DNA of 30,233 nucleotides from positions 1-30,233 of IMG/VR virus record IMGVR_UViG_3300014822_000084; one strand, given 5' to 3'. Below are positions 3,300-16,795 of the stretch, in pieces. The position numbers were made by a program, and so were the translations under genes. How positions within the stretch are numbered: the first letter of the stretch is position 1; each line of letters opens with the position of its first letter. The notes beneath the pieces were generated by a model. It was not told where the DNA came from, ran no database searches, and saw only the letters and a list, made by a program, of their open reading frames with translations. Origin of the DNA: a virus. Lineage: Duplodnaviria > Caudoviricetes.

Positions 3300-3953
3300 T
3301 TACACCTTCACCTTGCCGAAACGGTAAACCGTTTCAAACAGCTTAACAAAACGATCAACGTCATTGCCCAGATAGTAAAATACAGAATCCTTAGTTACTC
3401 CCGGAACACTGAGACCCCCTTTTTGATAATTCAAACGGCCGTAAAATATCCCAAGCGGATACTCTAGCAACGGCCGAAACCACGCAGCAGATACGGCCGC
3501 GAAGCACACACCACATACGGCCGTGACAAGTCCAGTTTCATACGCTGAAACGACGGCTTTGATCCATTCTTTGTTACCCGCAACATCATAAGCGACGTGA
3601 TACCCACGCCGCCGACAAACAGCCTTTGTGCATTTATTCAAATCGCACGGCCGTTCACGGCGACTAAATGGATGATTAACCCACATGCACCCCCGCGCTA
3701 TCTGATGAAGGTCATATGGCATAACCATCTCATCTATCTGATTGTATACCGGCATCTTGTCATACGGATGATTGACCATAAAAACTTGATCCGGCTTGCT
3801 AACAAATGAGGCAGCCCCAACAATGACATTTGCTTCACTTGAAGAAGCCGGATCAAAGTCAATTACACCCATCAAGTCACGAGCCAAGTCAACCACTTTT
3901 TTAGGCGTGTGCCAATCACGGTCTCCACTATCTTGGTGAATTAAATGAATCAT
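3300..3953 (-). CDS. Phage DNA N6-adenine methyltransferase-like protein
   Basis: DWHTP, DFDPASS and WVNHPFS (NPPY/F-equivalent) motifs, plus WF..L and GRLNY. Confidence 0.75.
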   Translation of the reverse strand: MIHLIHQDSGDRDWHTPKKVVDLARDLMGVIDFDPASSSEANVIVGAASFVSKPDQVFMVNHPYDKMPVYNQIDEMVMPYDLHQIARGCMWVNHPFSRRERPCDLNKCTKAVCRRRGYHVAYDVAGNKEWIKAVVSAYETGLVTAVCGVCFAAVSAAWFRPLLEYPLGIFYGRLNYQKGGLSVPGVTKDSVFYYLGNDVDRFVKLFETVYRFGKVKV

Positions 3954-4192: not shown

Positions 4193-4481
4193 CTGATATA
4201 CCGTCAGGATAATCAGTAAGCATGTTCCCCAAATCTATGAGAATGTACACATGATCGTCAGCTAATTCTTGTTCGTCAACATATCCACCATCCGTATGAG
4301 TGGCATCCAAAACAACCCCAGAAAGCGAAGCATTTACCAATGCTTTAGCAATCATCACTTCACCCAATTGTTTTGTTCGTTGCAAATCTTTGATTAATTC
4401 ACTTGAAAATAAATGCCAAAGTAAATCTTCAAGCGTTTCTAATTTCCCGTACTCTTTTTGCTTGGTTTCTTTTTGCGACAT
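4179..4481 (-). CDS. Hypothetical acidic protein
   Basis: 100-aa ORF with AAGGA upstream, packed in the operon. Confidence 0.7.
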   Translation of the reverse strand: MSQKETKQKEYGKLETLEDLLWHLFSSELIKDLQRTKQLGEVMIAKALVNASLSGVVLDATHTDGGYVDEQELADDHVYILIDLGNMLTDYPDGISVVEF

Positions 4482-4776
4482 AATTTTGATAGTCCTTTTC
4501 CTTCATTGGTTTAATGGATTTTACACGCTTGGGTGAGGATTTTACCCAGACACCACCGCGCCGTTTCCATGACCGGCGGCGAGCGTAGTAAACACGTTCA
4601 CCAGCCTTATTTATCTTAATATCAAACTCTATCCACCCCCCCCGCTTTTCCCTGTAAATTTGCGCCTTTTTCGTGGGCATGGAGCGCGCCTTTTTCGTGG
4701 GCATGGAGCGCGCCTTTTTCGTGGGCATGGAGCGCACCTTTTTCGTGGGCATGGAGCGCGCCTTTTTCGTGGGCAA
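4429..4776 (-). CDS. Very basic protein with RSMPTKKA repeats (start uncertain)
   Basis: In-frame 24-bp repeats followed by a Lys/Arg-rich domain. The frame stays open upstream to 4869 with no ATG in that extension. Confidence 0.6.
   Translation of the reverse strand: MPTKKARSMPTKKVRSMPTKKARSMPTKKARSMPTKKAQIYREKRGGWIEFDIKINKAGERVYYARRRSWKRRGGVWVKSSPKRVKSIKPMKEKDYQNYVAKRNQAKRVREIRNA
4662..4775. repeat. Tandem repeat, 24 bp x about 4.75 (gcgcctttttcgtgggcatggagc)
   Basis: Units start at 4662, 4686, 4710, 4734 (one substitution) and 4758 (partial). Confidence 0.95.
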
Positions 4777-4853
4777 CGGCAGCGCAACAACCGCGCTAAC
4801 GGCCCCGTCACGTCCAGCCGGAACACTGGACGCGACGGGTGATGTTGCGCCGC

Positions 4854-6225: not shown

Positions 6226-7044
6226 CTAACTACGGCCGACCAATTCAGCCGCTAATGGCGACATCCAGACACATTCTTTTCCAATGCGCCGCCCGTTTGT
6301 TCGTTGTTGGAAATCCACACGAACAAAACCGGCATTTTCATATAAATCCACATACAACGGCGACCAGTAGCCAGATACCAGCACCGGCCCGCGCGCTTTT
6401 GTTAAAAGCCGCGCAGCTTCCCTATGCCAATTTTGGCCAGGTTCAACGTTATACCCGCGCTTACGCTTGCGGGTATCTGAAACATATGGCGGATCAAAAT
6501 AAATCAGCACATCATGTTTGATAAACATATCAATGACAGTCAGCCCGTCACGGTTAAGAATTTGAACACCTTTCAGGCGTTCAGCCGTGACAAGCAGATC
6601 GTCACGGCTTAAAGCATCAAATGGGGGAGGGGAATACCTGTTTTGAGGATTCTTTTGAAAACGGAAACCGTTTTCAAAAACAGGCCCCCCTTTGATCGAC
6701 ATCCAGCAAAGAAAGAAAAACCGGCGGGCATCTTCAAGCGGATCATCCGCAACCTGAGCAGTTAACTTGTATTCATTTTCTGCCCAGGGGGTTAGGTTGA
6801 TTAAGTCTAATAATTCATTACCAGAATCCCGAAGGACGCGAAAAAAGTTTGTTACACGTGAATCAGCGTCATTCACAGTTTCATATTTGGCACGGCTTTT
6901 TTTAATGAAAACACCACCGGCCCCGAAACAGGGTTCAAGGTAAGCATCATGGTTAGGCATCAATGCTATTATTTTTTTTGCCCGGCGAAACCCACCACCG
7001 TAATACATCAACGGCGGTCTTTTTGGGTGTTTTTCATTAAACAT
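6226..7044 (-). CDS. DNA adenine methylase (D12/Dam class)
   Basis: YYGGG, YLEPCFGAGGV, ETVND and YFDPPY motifs. Confidence 0.92.
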   Translation of the reverse strand: MFNEKHPKRPPLMYYGGGFRRAKKIIALMPNHDAYLEPCFGAGGVFIKKSRAKYETVNDADSRVTNFFRVLRDSGNELLDLINLTPWAENEYKLTAQVADDPLEDARRFFFLCWMSIKGGPVFENGFRFQKNPQNRYSPPPFDALSRDDLLVTAERLKGVQILNRDGLTVIDMFIKHDVLIYFDPPYVSDTRKRKRGYNVEPGQNWHREAARLLTKARGPVLVSGYWSPLYVDLYENAGFVRVDFQQRTNGRRIGKECVWMSPLAAELVGRS

Positions 7045-7577
7045 GAATTTTCAACCTTGTAACAATCATCACAGAGATTCATTACAAATCCCCGATACGA
7101 ATTAGGATGCGTAGCAGGCTGGCCGCAATCACACCAGCCCAAATCAGTTAGCCCGTCCAATTCTTTGAACGGACGAGGCCTGCCAAACTTTTTTTGATAT
7201 TGGTAACACAAGCGACACAGCCCCTTGATTAATGCCGTTGTCCGGTCACGAGGCCGCCCGCAATTATTACATTTTTCAGCCCAGAGGTAGGAAGGCCGCT
7301 GCTTTCCACCATGAGCATTTTGGTACTGCCAACAGGCATTACACAGTCCACCACGCCTGTTAGTTGCGCGAGACTGCTTACACCGGCGGCAGAGAGGCCG
7401 GGGATCATTGCGCCACCTGATTTTATTTTCAGGCTTACGAGGCCGCCCATGCCGATACTCATATATACGGCAGGCAGGACAAAGACCACGAACTATTTTT
7501 CCTTTTCCGCGAGGAGCTTCCCCGCAGTTAGAGCATTTTTTTACTTTTTTTATTTGATCAGCTTTGCACATTGCCAT
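7008..7577 (-). CDS. Tandem zinc-finger protein
   Basis: Three CxxC...GLCxxC(Y/W/R) units each followed by an RP motif, plus a fourth CDCG...LCDDC unit. Confidence 0.75.
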   Translation of the reverse strand: MAMCKADQIKKVKKCSNCGEAPRGKGKIVRGLCPACRIYEYRHGRPRKPENKIRWRNDPRPLCRRCKQSRATNRRGGLCNACWQYQNAHGGKQRPSYLWAEKCNNCGRPRDRTTALIKGLCRLCYQYQKKFGRPRPFKELDGLTDLGWCDCGQPATHPNSYRGFVMNLCDDCYKVENSCLMKNTQKDRR

Positions 7578-8280
7578 TGCACCTTAAACAAATACCGTCA
7601 AAAATGGCATCACTTTTCCCGCAGCTATCGCAAACGGGAACGGCCGTAACAACAGGGGAGGGGGGCAGCCGATTATCACGGCAGCCATTGCGGATCATTC
7701 CGCCCACGCCTTTTATGCCCCCCCTGAAATTTTCCACCGCACTTTCAGGCAGTGAATTAGCCCAATCTACCCATGCAGATACATTGGGATATTGCGTCAC
7801 AAATTTTTCAGCATCAACAAAGCCGTAATTTTTAAGGGAGTTTATTAAAGAAGGAAGTAAATCGTTATCAATTACCATATGATCATTATCATCATGATCA
7901 TATGGGGATGCACTCTCAGAGTGCGTCCCGATGCACTCTGAGAGTGCATCCCGCCTTTTTGCAAATAGCGCTGAAATGTTATCCACAGAGTTATCCACAA
8001 GGTTATCCACAGAATTAGGGGAGTTATCCACAAGATTGCGGAATATATCAAACCCAGTTTGACTAATCCGCCATGAATAGCGGTTTACTCGCTCAACTAA
8101 CCCCATCTTATACAGATTGTTCATTTGTTCCGAGACCGTATTACGGCCCAGACGCAATCTAAAAGCACAATCTTGAATACTGGAGTTTGCCGGATGCACC
8201 GCCAGCAAATCAACCAAGACCGCGATGCTATTGACGGGTAAAACTTGTGTAAGGGGGATTTTATTCAACATCTTCACCAT
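7558..8280 (-). CDS. Putative replication initiator (N-terminal winged HTH, C-terminal Zn ribbon)
   Basis: wHTH-like segment (LRLGRNTVSEQMNNLYKMGLV), a linker that carries origin-like repeats, and a C-terminal CDSC...CLRC. Confidence 0.7.
   Translation of the reverse strand: MVKMLNKIPLTQVLPVNSIAVLVDLLAVHPANSSIQDCAFRLRLGRNTVSEQMNNLYKMGLVERVNRYSWRISQTGFDIFRNLVDNSPNSVDNLVDNSVDNISALFAKRRDALSECIGTHSESASPYDHDDNDHMVIDNDLLPSLINSLKNYGFVDAEKFVTQYPNVSAWVDWANSLPESAVENFRGGIKGVGGMIRNGCRDNRLPPSPVVTAVPVCDSCGKSDAIFDGICLRCNGNVQS
7875..8032. promoter_or_regulatory. Putative replication origin: inverted repeats plus four DnaA boxes
   Basis: TTATCCACA at 7979, 7991, 8003 and 8024; 20-bp inverted repeat 7905-7924/7933-7952; 12-bp inverted repeat 7875-7886/7894-7905 in an AT-rich tract. 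Confidence 0.75.
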
Positions 8281-8515: not shown

Positions 8516-9076
8516 TTAGTCAACAGGCATTGTGCATTTAGCAGCCAATTGAATCAACCAACTGGCGAAAAGAACAGGCGTGGCTTCACGTTGTTTTTTT
8601 GAACACGTTTCTACTGTTTTGATTGGATTTTCATACCTAACTGGCATTAATGGCGGAATATCAAGCCGAGATACACCCACAATATACAGCCCAGTTAATT
8701 TATGAGCCAAGTGACCGTAATCAAATTGATTAAGCAATAGTGTAAAGCCCCCGTATTTATCAACCAATAAAGAGCCAGGTGAAGGGCAATTCGCAGCAAC
8801 CCACAATTTTGAATCATAGGGATGCTCAACAACACCTCCATATTTTCTTACATAATCAACAGCAAAAAGAGCCAAGTCACGTTCAGATTTTGGCGCAATC
8901 GACAATGGAGATAAACGACTCCACAAGCGGCAAGGGGGGTGGCAAACAGCAGGCAGATTCTTGTCACACGAAAGAGCATCACGCTCTTTATCGTAACAAT
9001 GATCAAGCGGCAACATCTTTTTATATACGCTATGTTTTCTAACAAACAGTGCAACTACATTATTAACCCCAATCAT
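8516..9076 (-). CDS. Compact C5-cytosine methyltransferase-like protein
   Basis: CHPPC (catalytic PC), VVEHP (ENV-equivalent) and Q..YGH...K.T.LY; the SAM-binding motif is atypical. Confidence 0.55.
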   Translation of the reverse strand: MIGVNNVVALFVRKHSVYKKMLPLDHCYDKERDALSCDKNLPAVCHPPCRLWSRLSPLSIAPKSERDLALFAVDYVRKYGGVVEHPYDSKLWVAANCPSPGSLLVDKYGGFTLLLNQFDYGHLAHKLTGLYIVGVSRLDIPPLMPVRYENPIKTVETCSKKQREATPVLFASWLIQLAAKCTMPVD

Positions 9077-9097
9077 GTCTACAATAATAGCATAAAA

Positions 9098-9723
9098 AGG
9101 GGGAAAGCCTTCCCCCTGCCTTCAAAGCTACGCTTTTCAGGTCACCCCCTTCAAGCGGGGACACCCCGCAACGCCCCGAATAAGGAAGCCGTTGGGGTGG
9201 CAAACAGCCGCCACCCCAACGGATTAAATAACGCTCCGCCGGAAAACAACCCCGGCAGAGCTAACAGCGCCGTTAATAATCCGGCGGCGGGCGAATCGCC
9301 GCCGGATTATTAATAAGAAGATTAATCAAAACGAGGCAAAAAGCCGCCACTGTTTTGATTAATCTCGCCCGCAAAAAAAAAGCCTTTGCGGGACGACTTT
9401 ATTAAAGTTGGGGGAAACCCCCAAACCCCTGAACGTATGGATAAAAATTGGCATGAAACAGCCCATGCCAATTTTTGCATAATGCCCCTGCCCAATTACT
9501 TCGTAAATTGGGCATCGCCAGGGGCATTATGGGACGCAGCCTAGGCCTACGGCCGCGTTTGCCGGAGTAAGAATAAATAAGAACCTGAACGCAAGCCCTA
9601 CGGGTTGTCAAGGGCAAGTGGCATTTTGAAAAGTTGGCAAACAGCCGCCAACTTTTCAAAACCCTTGACAACGTTCAGAACCTTATTTTTTTATCCGGCA
9701 AGCAAACGCGGTCATGGGGCTGC
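9098..9723. other. Non-coding hairpin array with a shared loop motif (structured RNA or ssDNA element)
   Basis: About 11 consecutive inverted repeats; seven have loops AAACAGCC, A(n)GCC or AAAACAACC. Confidence 0.7.
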
Positions 9724-9945
9724 TACGAAAATTAAAACAACGAACACGACACCCAGATCACGCGCACATTTACAACTTAATAACGGGATAGGCCGGACAC
9801 CTAACGGACGGCAGGCCGCACAGCCTAAACTTTGCCGAGTGAGCCAAGAGAAGATCGGGACAAGCAACGGGAGAACCCACCGCCGAGACGATCAGCCACA
9901 GCAAAGAGTGAATTTTACCAATCAACTAGCAAGGAGAAGCTAACG

Positions 9946-10206
9946 ATGCACGAAGAAATCATCGACAATTATTTATATGAGCTTGAAATGATGGAATACC
10001 ACGAAAACAGGAGAGAGGAAACAATGAGCATGACCGATGCAGTAATTGAAGCAATCGACGCAATGAGCAATCAAGACCGATATGAGCTTTTAGCGTATTT
10101 TGGCTTGAAAATAGAGCATACACCACACTACACCTTAATGACGTATGCGCTAACCCTTGCCACGCTGGACGAGCTAACCCTGATCATTGACACTGTAAAA
10201 AGCTAA
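9946..10206 (+). CDS. Hypothetical early protein
   Basis: AAGGAG at 9931 precedes ATG 9946, in frame with ORF 9832. Confidence 0.7.
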   Translation: MHEEIIDNYLYELEMMEYHENRREETMSMTDAVIEAIDAMSNQDRYELLAYFGLKIEHTPHYTLMTYALTLATLDELTLIIDTVKS

Positions 10207-10280
10207 CCCAACCGCACACGGCCGACGCACACCCAGACCCACCGCGCCGGCCGTGCTGCACCATTAAGGAGAATTAAACC
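10207..10280 (+). repeat. Intergenic hairpin+RBS repeat, copy 1
   Basis: aaccgcacacggccgacgcacacccagacccaccgcgccggccgtgctgcaccattaaggagaattaaacc followed by ATG. Confidence 0.95.
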
Positions 10281-10703
10281 ATGACTTACCAAATCGACTT
10301 GAACAAAAGCCCTTACCACATCACAGAGATAAGAAAAGAGACCACAAAGAGCGGTAAAACTGTTTTTAATTGCTATCACCCCCCCCTTGATTATCCACTG
10401 TTACAAATCTTTGATCCCGTTATTCTTGCAGCCGCAGGAATTGACCCAAACCGTGATCAGATTTTTACCGACCTTTTGATCCACTGGACGGAAGGCGAGA
10501 AAGTGAACCAACACGGCAACCCCTACAAAAACGCAACCCGCGTAGAGAACCGGCAGCCTGAACGAGCAACGGCAGCCATAGAACAGATCGCCAAAGAGTT
10601 GCAAACGTTACGCGAGCTTGTTACATATTTGGCAGAGACCAACGGAGGCCGGGAGACACTGATCAAATGGTACAAAAGCCGAAAGGAGACCGGGAAACGA
10701 TGA
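10281..10703 (+). CDS. Hypothetical protein
   Basis: Strong TAAGGAG RBS supplied by repeat copy 1. Confidence 0.85.
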   Translation: MTYQIDLNKSPYHITEIRKETTKSGKTVFNCYHPPLDYPLLQIFDPVILAAAGIDPNRDQIFTDLLIHWTEGEKVNQHGNPYKNATRVENRQPERATAAIEQIAKELQTLRELVTYLAETNGGRETLIKWYKSRKETGKR

Positions 10704-10924
10704 ACCGCCAAAAAATGGAAAAATGGCTTGCGATGGAGAGAGTGAGCAGCGCAAGCCGTGAGCAATTAATCAAATATATGAAGGAATTTAAGATTGACAG
10801 ATTTTTAATTGCTAAATTTGAGCGGGAAGAAATGAAACCGCACGACGTAACCCGCGCCCACAGACTGATCAATAAACACCTAGAAGCGAGTGACCAAGCC
10901 GTCACATTTGTTCTATTAAACTAA
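10700..10924 (+). CDS. Hypothetical protein
   Basis: ATGA overlap with the upstream stop; AAGGAG upstream. Confidence 0.7.
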   Translation: MNRQKMEKWLAMERVSSASREQLIKYMKEFKIDRFLIAKFEREEMKPHDVTRAHRLINKHLEASDQAVTFVLLN

Positions 10925-10997
10925 CAACCGCACACGGCCGACGCACACCCGGACCCACCCGCGCCGGCCGTGCTGCACCATTAAGGAGAGTTAAACC
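10925..10997 (+). repeat. Intergenic hairpin+RBS repeat, copy 2
   Basis: Near identical to copy 1; identity continues into ATGACTTAC. Confidence 0.95.
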
Positions 10998-11504
10998 ATG
11001 ACTTACTTTTCAAATTGTCAGACAGTAGCCGAGATCAAGAAAATCTACCGCCAGCTTGCAATGGACAACCACCCAGACCGGGGGGGATCAAACGCCAAAA
11101 TGCAAGCAATCAATGAGGCCTATCATAAGGCCTTGAAATCTTTCCACAAGAAAGAAATGCAAGGCCATACTTACTATTACAACAAAGCACACGAACAAGC
11201 GATCATGGACATGATCGCAAAACTGAAAAAAGCGACTTTCCCCGAAGGCGTTAACATTGCGCTTATTGGAAAATGGTTATGGATCACCGGAACACAAAAG
11301 GGAGACGGAACAAGAGAAACATTGAAAGAATTAAACACAGAGGAAGCCCGCTGGAAGTGGCACAGCAAGCGCAAGGCGTGGTACTGGAAGCCGACCCAAT
11401 GGAGCGGGAAGGCGCATAAGGGCAGCCTAGAAGAGATCGCCGCTAAATATGGCGAGAACATGATCGACACGCCCCGCAAAAAACCGGCAGCCCTGAACGC
11501 ATAA
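10998..11504 (+). CDS. J-domain (DnaJ-like) protein with a Trp-rich C-terminal domain
   Basis: EIKKIYRQLAMDNHPDRGG...MQAINEAY with an intact HPD motif; C-terminal IGKWLWITG and WHSKRKAWYW. Confidence 0.88.
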   Translation: MTYFSNCQTVAEIKKIYRQLAMDNHPDRGGSNAKMQAINEAYHKALKSFHKKEMQGHTYYYNKAHEQAIMDMIAKLKKATFPEGVNIALIGKWLWITGTQKGDGTRETLKELNTEEARWKWHSKRKAWYWKPTQWSGKAHKGSLEEIAAKYGENMIDTPRKKPAALNA

Positions 11505-11570
11505 AAACAGAAACGGCCGACGCACACCCAGAAGCCGCCGACCGTTTCACCAGTTAAGGAGAATTAACCG
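11505..11570 (+). repeat. Intergenic hairpin+RBS repeat, copy 3 (divergent)
   Basis: Keeps acggccgacgcacacccaga and ttaaggagaattaacc; the stem ends are changed to gaaacgg/ccgtttc. Confidence 0.85.
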
Positions 11571-12017
11571 ATGACCCATAATAACATGATCCCCCGCACC
11601 ATTGCAAACGCTAAAGGCGTGATTGCAGACAATCAGCAGAAGATCGCCCGAATCAAACACCAAAACACCCGCACCGAACTGGAAAAGCGAGCAAACAAAG
11701 CCTTTGCAATAATCCAGACCGGCCGGATTGAGGAAGCACACGAATACACCGGCCGCGAACGCGACGAGAACGGCCGCAACTGGCATACATACACTGCCGC
11801 CCGTGCTATCGGTACAAAAGGCACATGCTACACAATCACGCTATGGATACCAGACGCGGACGATTATGAGCTAGCCGCACCCTTGCCCCCGATCCGCTAT
11901 ACTTGCACATGCCCAGATCGCCGCGCACCACTTATTAAAGGTACAAAATACTGCAAGCACGTGATCGCAGCCAAAACACTAAAAACCGCAAGGAGAAAAG
12001 CATATGGCACAAATTAA
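11571..12017 (+). CDS. SWIM zinc-finger protein
   Basis: YTCTCPD...YCKHVIAA (CxC-n-CxH). Confidence 0.85.
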   Translation: MTHNNMIPRTIANAKGVIADNQQKIARIKHQNTRTELEKRANKAFAIIQTGRIEEAHEYTGRERDENGRNWHTYTAARAIGTKGTCYTITLWIPDADDYELAAPLPPIRYTCTCPDRRAPLIKGTKYCKHVIAAKTLKTARRKAYGTN

Positions 12018-12306
12018 ATTTTGCCCGGTCTGTGATGACCCCTTTGAGGGGAGATCAGACGCTATTTTTTGTTCCCCAAAATGCCGGACGAAGGCGCACC
12101 GGCAGAAAAAACGGGAGGAAAAAGCCAAACAATGGCTTGATCAGACGACACCAGAGATCAGAGAAGATTTTTACTTGATCCGTAATTACTCAGACTATGC
12201 CGCTCGACTGATTGAAATAATTTCAGAGAAACACGGCAGAGAAGCCGCCGAGCTTGCCACCGTAGCCGGCCGCGCCATCATTGACGAGAAATTAATTTTG
12301 AGATAA
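12004..12306 (+). CDS. Zn-ribbon protein
   Basis: CPVCDDPF...AIFCSPKCR; AAGGAG RBS. Confidence 0.8.
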   Translation: MAQIKFCPVCDDPFEGRSDAIFCSPKCRTKAHRQKKREEKAKQWLDQTTPEIREDFYLIRNYSDYAARLIEIISEKHGREAAELATVAGRAIIDEKLILR

Positions 12307-12382
12307 ACCCAACCGCGCACGGCCGACGCACACCCAGACCCACCCGCGCCGGCCGTGCTGCACCATTAAGGAGAGTTAAACC
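12307..12382 (+). repeat. Intergenic hairpin+RBS repeat, copy 4
   Basis: Near identical to copies 1 and 2. Confidence 0.95.
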
Positions 12383-12997
12383 ATGACAAACCACGAACAC
12401 AAAGCAGACTTGATCGCCGAGAAGTTGACAGAAATCACCGGCAGCCAGTGGGAACAAGTCCCCCCAGAGGAAAACAGCCCCCACGCATGGGTTAAGGTGA
12501 TAACAAACGGGAATTTGACGCTTTTCCTGAATTTTGACGCATACGAAAACAGAGGAAAGGAAATGATCAAGGTGAGCGGGAAATACCGAACCCCCGCAGA
12601 CTACCCGCAGCCAATGATCGACATACCCGGCCCCGTCAACATATCCCAAAACAAAACACCCGATCGGATTGCCCGCGATATTATTAGAAGATACCTGAAA
12701 CAATACGAAAAGGCGGAAGCAAAAAACCGACATTTGATCAGCCAACACGAGGCCAAACTAGCCCGGCAGCGTGAGATCGAGACTTTGATCCAAATGAGCC
12801 TACCCAATTCCCACTTTGCCCAAATGCCCGGAGGATCAGACCGGCACATAACCGCCGGGAAATATGGCGGAACAATGATCCGGATTGAACCGAATCACCG
12901 AAAAGACGGAACAAAGGCAACTGTGATCTTGACCAACGTTGAGCAAGATCGCTTGTTTGAGCTTTTGGCCGTTATGCGCGGCATCTTTTCATTTTGA
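12383..12997 (+). CDS. Hypothetical protein
   Basis: 204 aa; RBS supplied by repeat copy 4. Confidence 0.85.
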   Translation: MTNHEHKADLIAEKLTEITGSQWEQVPPEENSPHAWVKVITNGNLTLFLNFDAYENRGKEMIKVSGKYRTPADYPQPMIDIPGPVNISQNKTPDRIARDIIRRYLKQYEKAEAKNRHLISQHEAKLARQREIETLIQMSLPNSHFAQMPGGSDRHITAGKYGGTMIRIEPNHRKDGTKATVILTNVEQDRLFELLAVMRGIFSF

Positions 12998-13001
12998 GGC
13001 C

Positions 13002-13043
13002 AAAATCCCCCGCTTGGCAGTAGCCAGGTGGGGGATTTTTTTT
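13002..13043 (+). terminator. Intrinsic terminator
   Basis: GC-rich stem with G-U pairs followed by T8, directly after the stop at 12997. Confidence 0.85.
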
Positions 13044-13190
13044 GTTGGGGAAAAGGGGGCGCACCCCCTTTTCCCCAAGCCCCATATCCCCCTGCCCCTT
13101 GGGGGAGATTAGGGGGATAATCCCCCTTTCCCCCAAACCCCCTTCACCCCGTACATGGGACGGTCACATGATCCAGTTTCATTTATTTAG

Positions 13191-13219
13191 TTGACAATAC
13201 AAGCTAGATGTGCTAATGT
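13191..13219 (+). promoter_or_regulatory. Sigma70-type promoter
   Basis: TTGACA-17bp-TAATGT with an extended -10 TGn. Confidence 0.65.
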
Positions 13220-14883: not shown

Positions 14884-15396
14884 ATGGACGACAATACATA
14901 TAATGGGGAAGGGGCAGAATGGATGGAGGCAGTAAGCGGTCAGCTTGACCGTTTGCAAGGCCACTGGAAACAGAGGTCAACCATCCTAGCGATTCTAGCC
15001 GCCGAGGTGACCGGTCAGGCATGGGATAAAAAGGAATTTTGGGGGAGGAGTGACACGGCCGCACGTTCTACATACTACAAATGGACGGCGACAGACCCCG
15101 TATTTTCGGCAGTCCTACAGGCTTGCCGAACGGCCGTGCAGAATTGGCGCAGCGACCGCGCCTTAAAATCAATTGCAGAAGCACAATTAATTTTGCAAGA
15201 GGCAGGCCCAGAGGTGGCACGGCAACTAGTTGCATTGGCACTAGGCAGCCGGTCAGACCACGTGAAGGTGCAGGCCGCATTAGGCGCACTTGACCGGATG
15301 CACCCCGACACGGCCGCAAAACAAACCCACATGATTAGTCCCGACGTGATTAATGCCACGCTTCACCAAATTTACGGCGATGATGAAAGCGAGTAG
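14884..15396 (+). CDS. terS: Terminase small subunit (putative)
   Basis: HTH-like ARSTYYKW...DPVF; overlaps the start of terL. Confidence 0.7.
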   Translation: MDDNTYNGEGAEWMEAVSGQLDRLQGHWKQRSTILAILAAEVTGQAWDKKEFWGRSDTAARSTYYKWTATDPVFSAVLQACRTAVQNWRSDRALKSIAEAQLILQEAGPEVARQLVALALGSRSDHVKVQAALGALDRMHPDTAAKQTHMISPDVINATLHQIYGDDESE

Positions 15397-16795
15397 CCAG
15401 CGTGACTTGTTGCTGAGAGCAGCAGAAGAAGCAAAAAAAGCGGGTTGCCCAAAGAGCCAGGTCAAACGCTTTTTTGAGGCGGGATATATCCCGCAGCCAC
15501 AGCAGTGGCAGTTTCACGCGGCGGCCAGAGCCGCCGACAAGCCCGACGGCCCAACAAGAATAGCGTTGGGCGGGGACAGGGGAGGGGCAAAGAGCCATGC
15601 TATCATTGCCCAAATTTTCATAGACGACATGCAGCGATACCCCGGAATCTACGCGCTTTATTTGCGTAAAGTGGGGAAGGCCGCAAGAAAGGCGTTAGAG
15701 CAAATCAGGGCAAAAACATTTGGGACGTTGCCACACAGGTTCAACAGCAATGATGGAACTGTGAGCTACCCAAATGGCAGCAGTGGCGTAATTGGTCACT
15801 TTCGTACCGAAAGCGACATTGACAAATATGTAGGCCTTGAGTTTCCAATCATGGCACTGGAAGAAGCCACGCAGCTACCAAAAACGGCCGTTGACTTGCT
15901 CTTTGGGTCAAATAGATCGAACCTACCGCACGTCCGGCCGAGGGGATATTTTGGAGCAAACCCCGGCGGCATTGGTCACCAGTGGTTTAAGCAGCAATTT
16001 GTAATACCCCACCGGCAGCACAAGCAAAAAGAAACCTATTTCATACCCGTATCATGGCGACAGAACGCATTTATAAGCCAAGCGTACATTAATTATCTCA
16101 ACAGCTTGACCGGCATTTTGCGGGAAATTTGGCGTGATGGAAATTGGGACGTAACCGCAGGCAGTTTCTTTACCAACTGGAGCGAGGATATACACGTCAT
16201 TGAGCCATTTGAAATAACCCCGGACATGCCAGCGTGGGCAAGCATGGATTATGGATATACACACCCAACGGCCGTGTATTTCCATGTAGCTTGGCAGGGC
16301 ATCATTTACACTGTTGTAGAGCATTGTCACGCACGCCGCTTACCAGAGTGGCACGCGGAAAAAATACACCAGCTTAGCAGCCAGGTCTTAAAGCGACCTG
16401 TCAGCGACCTAATATCATTTGTTGCCGGCCATGATATTTTCGCGCAGCGCTGCGACGCGGAAGGGCGCACCGTCGCCGACCAGTATGCCGCGCACGGCAT
16501 ACACCTATCACGAGCGAACATTGACAGGCAGGCCGGAGCAGCCGAGATGTTGAAACGGCTTGGAAGCAAAGACGACGGCATACCCCCCACGTGGTATATT
16601 TTCAAATCATGCACGCAGCTAATTAAAACAATGCCGCTTATGCAAACAGACCCCCGGAGGCCGGAGGATGTTTTGAAAATGGACGCAAGCGAGACCCAAG
16701 ACGGGGATGATCCATACGATGCAGCACGCTATGGCATCATGGAACGGCCGTTACAGGCCAAAGAGAAAAACGAGCAATTTATGATGAGCTACTAA
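15380..16795 (+). CDS. terL: Terminase large subunit
   Basis: Walker A GGDRGGAKS, Walker B MALEEATQ, motif GANPGGIGH, and nuclease motifs SMDYGYTHP and DDPYDAARY. The start is probably 15380 or 15383. Confidence 0.93.
   Translation: MMKASSQRDLLLRAAEEAKKAGCPKSQVKRFFEAGYIPQPQQWQFHAAARAADKPDGPTRIALGGDRGGAKSHAIIAQIFIDDMQRYPGIYALYLRKVGKAARKALEQIRAKTFGTLPHRFNSNDGTVSYPNGSSGVIGHFRTESDIDKYVGLEFPIMALEEATQLPKTAVDLLFGSNRSNLPHVRPRGYFGANPGGIGHQWFKQQFVIPHRQHKQKETYFIPVSWRQNAFISQAYINYLNSLTGILREIWRDGNWDVTAGSFFTNWSEDIHVIEPFEITPDMPAWASMDYGYTHPTAVYFHVAWQGIIYTVVEHCHARRLPEWHAEKIHQLSSQVLKRPVSDLISFVAGHDIFAQRCDAEGRTVADQYAAHGIHLSRANIDRQAGAAEMLKRLGSKDDGIPPTWYIFKSCTQLIKTMPLMQTDPRRPEDVLKMDASETQDGDDPYDAARYGIMERPLQAKEKNEQFMMSY

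What the first reader, a model, noticed from the sequence alone, without database searches (positions are those of the whole stretch)
9098..9661. Non-coding hairpin array with unrelated stems but a shared AAACAGCC-type loop
Seen in sequence: three perfect stems with mostly different sequences carry the identical 8-nt loop AAACAGCC. They are 9189-9222 (13 bp), 9443-9476 (13 bp) and 9624-9661 (15 bp). Four more stems carry variants: AAAGCC (9098-9117), AAAACAACC (9233-9261), AAAAAGCC (9319-9365) and AAAAAAGCC (9368-9392). Further stems lie at 9155-9169, 9273-9313 (17 bp perfect), 9410-9422 and 9478-9531. A conserved loop on interchangeable stems implies selection on a single-stranded structure presenting a multivalent binding site. 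Inference: either a phage ncRNA acting as a protein sponge or scaffold (CsrB/RsmZ-like logic, but a different loop), or an ssDNA element such as a priming signal (the other strand reads GGCTGTTT). I recognise no known family.
Basis: partly seen in the sequence, partly recalled or inferred. Interest (0 to 1): 0.85.

Follow-up and report, generated by a model that had tools for sequence, protein, structure and literature searches.

The report
Single-strand DNA signals in tailed phage
This hairpin array in a hot-spring tailed phage contains a module shared with conjugative plasmids and single-stranded DNA phages, and it likely works not as an RNA but as folded single-stranded DNA that primes replication and switches on the neighbouring genes, which is unexpected in a double-stranded phage.

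Summary
The array is real: 7 perfect stems of 8 bp or more, against 0.18 in shuffles. It lies in a circular 30-kb tailed phage, probably of Chloroflexota. The evidence points to folded single-stranded DNA of the MINUS strand (loops GGCTGTTT), not a plus-strand RNA sponge. (1) 9095-9182 is a covarying three-hairpin module also found in conjugative plasmids ahead of ardC-type genes, in two microviruses on the gene (virion) strand, and in many other tailed phages. (2) DNA-type cGNAg triloops favour that strand 24:1, and 17:2 in held-out loci. (3) 9536-9722 folds into an Frpo-like promoter: TTGACA and TATTCT lie 30 nt apart in duplex DNA but 17 apart when folded, facing a plasmid-like gene cassette; an inovirus carries a relative. 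The repeated loops extend the module's conserved GGCT/GACT loop, but GGCTGTTT loops were found in no other genome, so their ligand (primase is my guess) is untested. No Rfam family or paper holds the module. The scan earlier noted Frpo-like hairpins in another tailed phage (e1-6269607). Verdict: new variant of single-strand origin/promoter in an unexpected host; when the strand is exposed is open.

The parts
9095..9182 (-). Conserved three-hairpin module: P1 9098-9117 (minus-strand loop GGCT), P2 9119-9144 (cGTAg triloop, tandem G-A pairs), P3 9155-9169 with an extra G run to 9177. Likely a single-strand initiation signal.
   Evidence: blastn to 57 plasmid records, best E 2e-9; microvirus hits; model R1 matches; covariation
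9189..9222 (-). 13-bp perfect hairpin, loop GGCTGTTT on minus (AAACAGCC on plus)
9233..9261 (-). Hairpin with variant loop GGTTGTTTT
9273..9313 (.). 17-bp perfect hairpin with an unrelated loop
9319..9365 (-). Hairpin, 14-bp outer stem, loop GGCTTTTT
9368..9392 (-). 8-bp hairpin, loop GGCTTTTTT
9410..9429 (-). G-run / G-run / C-run unit with the same layout as P3 of the module
9443..9476 (-). 13-bp perfect hairpin, loop GGCTGTTT
9478..9531 (-). Nested hairpin (13 bp + 9 bp) capped by a cGAAg triloop on minus
9536..9722 (-). Long imperfect stem predicted to be a fold-back (Frpo-like) promoter firing towards higher coordinates; the 9624-9661 hairpin (loop GGCTGTTT) is its tip
   Evidence: DNA fold z -7.8; geometry; family of similar stems including an inovirus
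9606..9611 (-). -35 hexamer TTGACA, paired in the fold
9592..9604 (-). 13-nt extrusion containing a cGTAg mini-hairpin; looping it out shortens the spacer from 30 to 17
9570..9575 (-). -10-like hexamer TATTCT in a partly mismatched stretch; the facing arm reads TTTTTA on plus
9946..12997 (+). Cassette of small genes facing away from the array; no TTGACN-16/18-TAnnnT promoter upstream of it in duplex DNA
10208..12387 (+). Four related about 78-nt leader repeats with ribosome-binding site (10208, 10925, 11502, 12310), each before a cassette gene
10281..10703 (+). Protein with a probable OB-type fold (possible ssDNA-binding protein; weak)
   Evidence: model pLDDT 91.7; best Foldseek E 0.02; best Z 5.5, OB-fold proteins dominate the list
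10998..11504 (+). J-domain protein typical of conjugative plasmids; the same family stands in cassettes of other module-bearing phages
   Evidence: Pfam DnaJ; 1715 plasmid records, 1266 conjugative; phrog_15863 in L203 and L250
7558..8280 (-). Probable replication initiator (HTH_36-like) with internal tandem TTATCCACA repeats at 7975-8017: likely the double-strand origin, 1.1 kb from the array
   Evidence: reading the repeat as DnaA boxes is recalled knowledge
14884..16795 (+). Terminase small and large subunits, downstream of the cassette

Best explanation
The array is likely a cluster of signals that fold only when the minus strand is single-stranded, and it is predicted to serve as a single-strand origin plus fold-back promoter, probably taken over together with its gene cassette from plasmid-type mobile elements. 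Shown: the hairpins, the conserved module and its covariation, the strand bias of DNA triloops, the promoter geometry, and the plasmid-like cassette. Inferred: host RNA polymerase reads the folded 9536-9722 stem and transcribes rightwards, giving a primer for second-strand synthesis and early mRNA for the 9946-12997 cassette. Also inferred: the three-hairpin module recruits a conserved host priming factor. Most speculative (about 0.3): the GGCTGTTT/GGCTTTTT loops are extra copies of the module's GGCT loop that hold a CTN triplet clear of SSB for DnaG primase. I think the strand is most likely exposed during the phage's own replication (displaced or lagging strand, stalled forks), since no phage primase or helicase was recognised in the genes scanned.
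For: Module: 57 plasmid records, 11 viral loci with the exact 23-nt core, 21 further viral loci at E <= 4.4e-5. Covariation score 0.255 against 0.117 shuffled and at most 0.123 for slid partners, 37 sequences; G and C runs of P3 match in length in 33 of 35. Strand: in microviruses MG945216 and PQ007040 the window-minus form lies on the gene strand, the virion strand by established knowledge (G4 record). In plasmids it is the template strand of ardC, DUF932 and ParB genes. cGNAg triloops 24 vs 1 in 21 loci (about 3.9 expected per strand) and 17 vs 2 in 20 held-out loci; window 4 vs 0. Promoter: spacer 30 linear, 17 folded; inovirus L226 has the same hairpin top with TTGACA, a bulge and TATTAT on its gene strand. 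Cassette: J-domain gene. Same order module, cassette, terminase in G408 and L277.
Against: No experiment shows folding, priming or transcription. Both strands fold about equally well as DNA (-188.8 vs -186.0; -56.2 both). The GGCTGTTT loops were found in no other genome, and 9180-9730 has no plasmid match. In the hairpin family a -10-like hexamer 14-21 nt after the -35 occurs in 9 of 17 stem-forming loci against 3 of 15 others, and several are close relatives; four have a plain 17-nt spacer and could be ordinary duplex promoters. In five or six of them (L214, L217, L219, L224, L229, probably L221) that strand is the sense strand of the ParB/methylase/ArdA genes. The module is missing from 76 loci of capsid relatives. 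One myovirus has 4 copies in both orientations, which also fits a dispersed repeat. No relaxase or rolling-circle initiator was recognised here. oriT was not located in the plasmids. The triloop count may be inflated by purine skew and by related loci. The alignment was fitted to the model.
Confidence: 0.62

Rival explanations
1. The hairpins extrude as cruciforms from supercoiled double-stranded phage DNA and act as a supercoiling-dependent promoter or protein-landing region, as in the hairpin promoters of phage N4 (recalled), without a long single-stranded stage.
For: Stems are long and perfect, and both strands fold equally. A dsDNA phage with no recognised rolling-circle initiator has no obvious ssDNA stage.
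Against: The module sits in microviruses and plasmid leading-type regions, where true ssDNA is established. The 187-nt imperfect stem is unlikely to extrude from a duplex (inference). No phage RNA polymerase was recognised.
Confidence: 0.1
2. The region is a passenger or dispersed palindromic element: a plasmid leading-region fragment captured with useful genes, or a REP/MITE-like repeat, with no working ssDNA role in this phage.
For: Patchy distribution: absent from 76 capsid-relative loci. Four copies in both orientations in one myovirus. Repeat-bounded cassettes suggest modular exchange.
Against: Stems are still perfect and the promoter geometry is intact. The module recurs at the head of cassettes in unrelated tailed phages. 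One copy in this genome, and none in 401 (pattern) or 151 (model) sampled Chloroflexota genomes, although those searches had no positive control genome.
Confidence: 0.14
3. The array is transcribed as a structured non-coding RNA whose repeated loops titrate a host protein (plus strand, AAACAGCC loops; or minus strand, like the Collinsella-1 motif).
For: Strong RNA folding. Sub-threshold Rfam match to Collinsella-1 on the minus strand (24 bits, gathering 35, E 7e-4), whose hairpins also carry GGCUG at the loop start.
Against: cGNAg triloops are a DNA-stabilising motif (PMC3201870, PMC13037366, abstract starts) and are confined to the minus strand. No consensus promoter flanks the array. Homologous module contexts are DNA-transfer and ssDNA-phage regions.
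Confidence: 0.1
4. The plus strand is the working template and the loops are G4-type primase sites, exposed as the lagging template of a rightward fork from the origin at about 8000.
For: Stem-loop I of the phage G4 origin, fetched, has GGCG-AAAGCC-GCC on the template strand, close to GGCA-AAAAGCC-GCC at 9335 and GGCA-AACAGCC-GCC at 9199 and 9636.
Against: In G4 a CTG follows the stem; it does not follow the 9189 or 9624 hairpins. Every other strand cue points to the minus strand. Model R1 does not match G4.
Confidence: 0.04

Closest known systems
[quoted passage not shown]
   Same: Long imperfect stem that rebuilds -35 and -10 boxes on folding, placed before small leading-region-type genes; proposed dual use as promoter and primer site.
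   Different: No sequence similarity (no plasmid match; four motif strings absent from 10 supplement files of PMC11541004, one scanned PDF not searched). It lies in a tailed phage with no recognised oriT or relaxase, and comes with a three-hairpin module and six loop-bearing hairpins.
Single-strand origins of ssDNA phages and rolling-circle plasmids: ssi of phiX174 (primosome), sso of pT181 (RNA polymerase) (PMC5714925 passages)
   Same: Hairpin-rich non-coding region on the strand that is single-stranded; both the module and the promoter hairpin have relatives in microviruses and an inovirus.
   Different: Which host factor is used was not determined; the host element is a dsDNA phage with a theta-type initiator candidate.
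Phage G4 origin of complementary-strand synthesis (record NC_001420)
   Same: Several hairpins; stem-loop I carries AAAGCC flanked by GGC/GCC.
   Different: Polarity is opposite to the strand inferred here, the downstream CTG is missing at two of the three main hairpins, and R1 does not match G4.
Collinsella-1 RNA motif RF01700 (PMC2864571; table row and supplement passages)
   Same: Row of hairpins with GGCUG at the start of loops; weak match on the minus strand.
   Different: 24 bits against a gathering score of 35; different stems; described as an RNA candidate.
CsrB/RsmZ sponge RNAs (recalled)
   Same: Many hairpins with a shared loop.
   Different: Loops are not GGA on either strand; DNA-type features; no Rfam match.

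Membership tests
Frpo/ssi ssDNA promoters | Long stem-loop that rebuilds -35 and -10 boxes at proper spacing in the folded strand | tested here: met
   TTGACA-17-TATTCT after a 13-nt extrusion, minus strand; a prediction, and the DNA MFE register around the -10 varies
Frpo/ssi ssDNA promoters | No working promoter in the duplex form | tested here: met
   By consensus only: spacer 30 on minus, TTTTTA at the -10 position on plus; 0 promoter-like sites in 8800-10100
Frpo/ssi ssDNA promoters | Sequence homology to F Frpo or ColIb ssi (class 1) or to classes 2 and 3 | tested here: not met
   No blastn match of 9180-9730 in 72,556 plasmids at E 1; motif strings absent from the Frpo table
Frpo/ssi ssDNA promoters | Lies in the leading region behind an oriT, on the transferred strand | tested here: inconclusive
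   No relaxase recognised by PHROGs (41 ORFs) or Pfam (27 ORFs); many ORFs are unannotated; cassette genes are plasmid-like
Frpo/ssi ssDNA promoters | Transcription from ssDNA and not dsDNA in vitro or in vivo | not testable with these tools
   needs bench work
Single-strand origins (sso/ssi) | Strand-specific structured non-coding region on the strand that is single-stranded | tested here: met
   Orientation in two microviruses and one inovirus; triloop bias. Met for homologues; exposure in this phage is inferred
Single-strand origins (sso/ssi) | Supports conversion of ssDNA to dsDNA by host enzymes | not testable with these tools
   needs an M13 rescue or in vitro priming assay
G4-type primase site | Stem-loop with CTG directly 3' of it on the template strand | tested here: not met
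   Compared with G4: no CTG after 9222 or 9661 on plus; on minus the CTG is inside the loop
Collinsella-1 RNA (RF01700) | Score at or above Rfam gathering threshold | tested here: not met
   24 bits vs 35
CsrB/RsmZ sponges | Repeated GGA loops and an Rfam match | tested here: not met
   Loops listed; 0 matches at gathering score
REP/MITE repeats | Many dispersed copies in the host chromosome | tested here: inconclusive
   0 of 401 and 0 of 151 Chloroflexota genomes, without a positive control and with the true host unknown; 4 copies in one phage

The most novel reading that the evidence does not exclude
Many tailed phages have a plasmid-style leading region. The DNA just upstream of the terminase genes carries a single-strand origin, an ssDNA-only promoter and anti-defence cassettes because one defined strand becomes single-stranded on entry, or when host nucleases resect it. 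The phage would then express counter-defence genes and rebuild its second strand from that state, with the GGCT loops as a multivalent primase platform.
Probability: 0.2. Interest if true: 0.9.

Novelty: new variant of a known kind. Interest (0 to 1): 0.66.

Why it matters
ssDNA promoters and single-strand origins are known from conjugative plasmids, rolling-circle replicons and ssDNA phages. Here an apparently undescribed module, nearly invariant over 23 nt in Alphaproteobacteria, Campylobacter, Acidobacteria and Treponema plasmids, microviruses and at least 16 tailed-phage records, points to a shared host factor and to an unrecognised single-stranded step in tailed-phage life cycles. It gives short, testable DNA parts: a 90-nt module and a 190-nt promoter that should be silent in duplex DNA. 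It also offers a marker for anti-defence cassettes in phages.

Tried and rejected
Rfam at gathering score: 0 matches in the window, only 2 tRNAs in 16 module loci; no tRNA/tmRNA. Exact search for the 16-nt loop-plus-stem motif gave 24 viral loci, none with an extended stem or array: chance hits. Terminase search found 1 distant locus. Capsid relatives (33 viral, 9 genome, 80 metagenome loci) hold no AAACAGCC-type loop on a stem of 7 bp or more; nine extra flanking stretches of five close relatives also lack the array. Loci reach only 10 kb from the capsid gene and many are fragments, so this is not proof of absence. Model R1 was run on 67 of those 122 loci plus the 9 stretches: no match. A P2-based pattern found nothing. 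Four repeated hits in G001 were an unrelated palindrome. No RNA holder listed; this says nothing on expression. Runs X2 and X3 laid nothing. Single-sequence fold of 7558-8280 was unusable (pLDDT 35). The SSB reading of 10281-10703 stays weak (E >= 0.02, Z <= 5.5). ORFs overlapping the array (8939-9313, 9402-9671, 9605-9943) were translated but not scanned against family libraries; I set them aside because homologous modules vary in stem length. A REP reading (GTAG before P2) failed: the tetramer varies. Paper searches for the module text found one unrelated paper; searches for ssDNA promoters or origins in tailed phages listed nothing relevant (listings only; library is open-access only). One search was a mistaken search with no bearing. 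The Collinsella-1 seed record was not in the collections.

Full report
Observation. 9098-9722 holds 7 perfect stems of at least 8 bp, 4 of them at least 13 bp; 300 dinucleotide shuffles give means of 0.18 and 0. AAACAGCC occurs 10 times in the genome; the 3 copies in the array close 13-15 bp stems and the other 7 close at most 1 bp. Rfam gives nothing at gathering score.

Setting. The window looks like a whole circular phage genome: it has an 86-nt end overlap and terminase, portal, capsid and tape-measure genes. The only run holding it is a hot-spring metagenome, possibly its source. The closest capsids (59-60%) are in Chloroflexota genome bins, so the host is probably of that phylum (inference). 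The array lies between divergent gene blocks. To the left is a probable replication initiator with tandem TTATCCACA repeats. To the right is a cassette of small genes led by four related 78-nt repeats, followed by the terminase genes.

The 5' end is a conserved module. 9090-9190 matches 57 plasmid records, 44 typed conjugative, best E 2e-9; 33 of them are near-identical Campylobacter plasmids. Among the records opened, it stands directly before ardC in Ketogulonicigenium and Granulicella plasmids and before DUF932 and ParB in an Agrobacterium plasmid. It precedes hypothetical genes in three others and faces a converging gene in two. An exact 23-nt core occurs in 11 viral loci. A covariance model built from 19 copies finds 21 further loci at E <= 4.4e-5 among the 24 new loci. 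On 37 aligned copies the covariation score is 0.255, against 0.117 for shuffles and at most 0.123 for slid partners (alignment fitted to the model, sequences related). G and C runs of P3 change length together in 33 of 35.

Which strand, and DNA or RNA. In two microviruses the form that equals the window's minus strand lies on the gene strand (the second has only P1-P2, model E 0.011). That is the packaged strand by established knowledge; the G4 record places its complementary-strand origin on the gene strand. In the ardC-type plasmid contexts the same form is the template strand. That would be the transferred strand if these regions follow F (recalled; PMC11541004 passages), but I did not map oriT. 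cGNAg triloop hairpins, a DNA-stabilising motif (PMC3201870 and PMC13037366, abstract starts only), number 24 on that strand and 1 on the other in 21 loci, with about 3.9 expected per strand. I had seen the pattern before that count; in 20 non-duplicate held-out loci it is 17 against 2. In the window it is 4 against 0, and 4 of the 5 minus-strand cases genome-wide lie in the array. Purine skew and kinship among loci may inflate these ratios, and folding energy alone does not separate the strands.

A promoter that appears on folding. On the minus strand TTGACA (9611-9606) and TATTCT (9575-9570) are 30 nt apart. In the fold a 13-nt stretch with a cGTAg mini-hairpin loops out and leaves 17. The facing arm has TTTTTA at the -10 position, so neither duplex strand carries a consensus promoter, and none was found before the cassette. 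Polymerase would run towards higher coordinates, into the cassette. A pattern from the stem's top found 34 viral loci; 17 of 32 non-duplicates form the same kind of stem. One is an inovirus with TTGACA, a bulge and TATTAT on its gene strand, and one element with a rolling-circle initiator carries the hairpin top on its gene strand but only a short stem. Against: a -10-like hexamer at 14-21 nt occurs in 9 of 17 versus 3 of 15, four have a linear 17-nt spacer, and in the ParB/methylase/ArdA group the strand is the sense strand, so there the arm may be an ordinary promoter. This layout is that of Frpo and the class 1-3 ssDNA promoters (passages of PMC11541004 and PMC12672017), without sequence likeness.

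The shared loop. The module's P1 loop on the inferred strand is GGCT in 12 and GACT in 11 of 35. Five of the six loop-bearing hairpins of the array begin with GGCT followed by a T-rich run, and one reads GGTT. GGCTGT also sits at a stem junction about 140 nt from the module in two related phages, and a pVir hairpin has a GGCTTT loop. Full GGCTGTTT loops were found nowhere else. DnaG starts at CTG or CTA in Proteobacteria and CTA or TTA in Firmicutes (PMC2978363, abstract and section 20); three loops hold CTG, the others CTT or TTG, and the Chloroflexota triplet is unknown to me. A primase role is therefore a guess. The plus-strand form resembles G4 stem-loop I, but in the opposite polarity.

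Tailed phages carry it repeatedly. Head or packaging genes flank the module in 5 of the 10 records, plus L201, and in 10 of 20 further loci, for which 50 of 93 listed ORFs were scanned. G408 and L277 share this window's order: module, cassette (amidoligase and amidotransferase; ArdA), terminase. L203 and L250 have the same J-domain family in the cassette, and that protein has homologues in 1715 plasmid records, 1266 conjugative. The collection searched is viral by design, so these shares overstate the phage bias. The module is patchy: it is missing from 76 capsid-relative loci, and one myovirus has four copies in both orientations. The second cassette gene probably has an OB fold, but the evidence for SSB is weak.

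Mechanism. I commit (0.62) to a minus-strand ssDNA origin and promoter cluster, acquired with its cassette from mobile-element leading regions. It would be used when that strand is exposed, most simply during replication, to prime the second strand with host enzymes and to drive the cassette. Structure, conservation, polarity in homologues and promoter geometry are shown by calls; folding in vivo, the bound factor and the timing are inferred. Rivals are a passenger or dispersed repeat (0.14), cruciform extrusion (0.10), a non-coding RNA (0.10) and plus-strand G4-type sites (0.04).

Novelty. It works like Frpo/sso but fails sequence membership of the named classes. I found the module in no Rfam family and in no open-access paper by text search; older subscription literature on ssi sequences, bioRxiv supplements and one scanned PDF were not visible and could hold it. 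Earlier notes of this scan report Frpo-like hairpins in a Bacteroidota tailed phage and in several mobile elements; I reached the reading before that call (note) and did not check their loci. Score: new variant of a known kind, interest 0.66.

Noticed in passing
window 10205-10289: Contigs of run X1 include a 1394-nt piece whose two ends both map to this leader repeat at similar depth: probably an extra gene cassette missing from the window's assembly or present in a variant.
   Followed up: no
window 10208, 10925, 11502, 12310: Four related about 78-nt leaders, each a hairpin plus ribosome-binding site before a cassette gene; they fold slightly better on the minus strand. They recall conserved upstream repeats of plasmid establishment genes (recalled).
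   Followed up: partly
window 12998-13145: Second hairpin cluster with G-run/G-run/C-run units like 9410-9429, followed by a consensus duplex promoter at 13191.
   Followed up: partly
window 7905-8017: A 20-bp palindrome and tandem TTATCCACA repeats at 12-nt spacing inside the probable initiator gene.
   Followed up: partly
window 4638-4781: 24-nt tandem repeat encoding a basic repeated peptide at the start of ORF 4429-4776.
   Followed up: no
window 3300-3953 and 6226-7044: Two DNA methyltransferase genes in the leftward block; no integrase or lysin was recognised among the 41 ORFs scanned.
   Followed up: no
L202 and L203 (records G406, G407): Small elements with integrase, terminase, portal, a LuxR-type gene, protease and capsid, then a converging cassette ending in the module; they may be capsid-forming satellites or prophage fragments.
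   Followed up: partly
L206 4998-5091; L207 4637-4727, 6197-6298, 19357-19431: Myovirus G410 has four diverged module copies among structural and replication genes, in both orientations.
   Followed up: partly
L157-L160 (G001): An unrelated about 60-nt palindromic repeat occurs at least four times between genes in this Chloroflexota bin.
   Followed up: no
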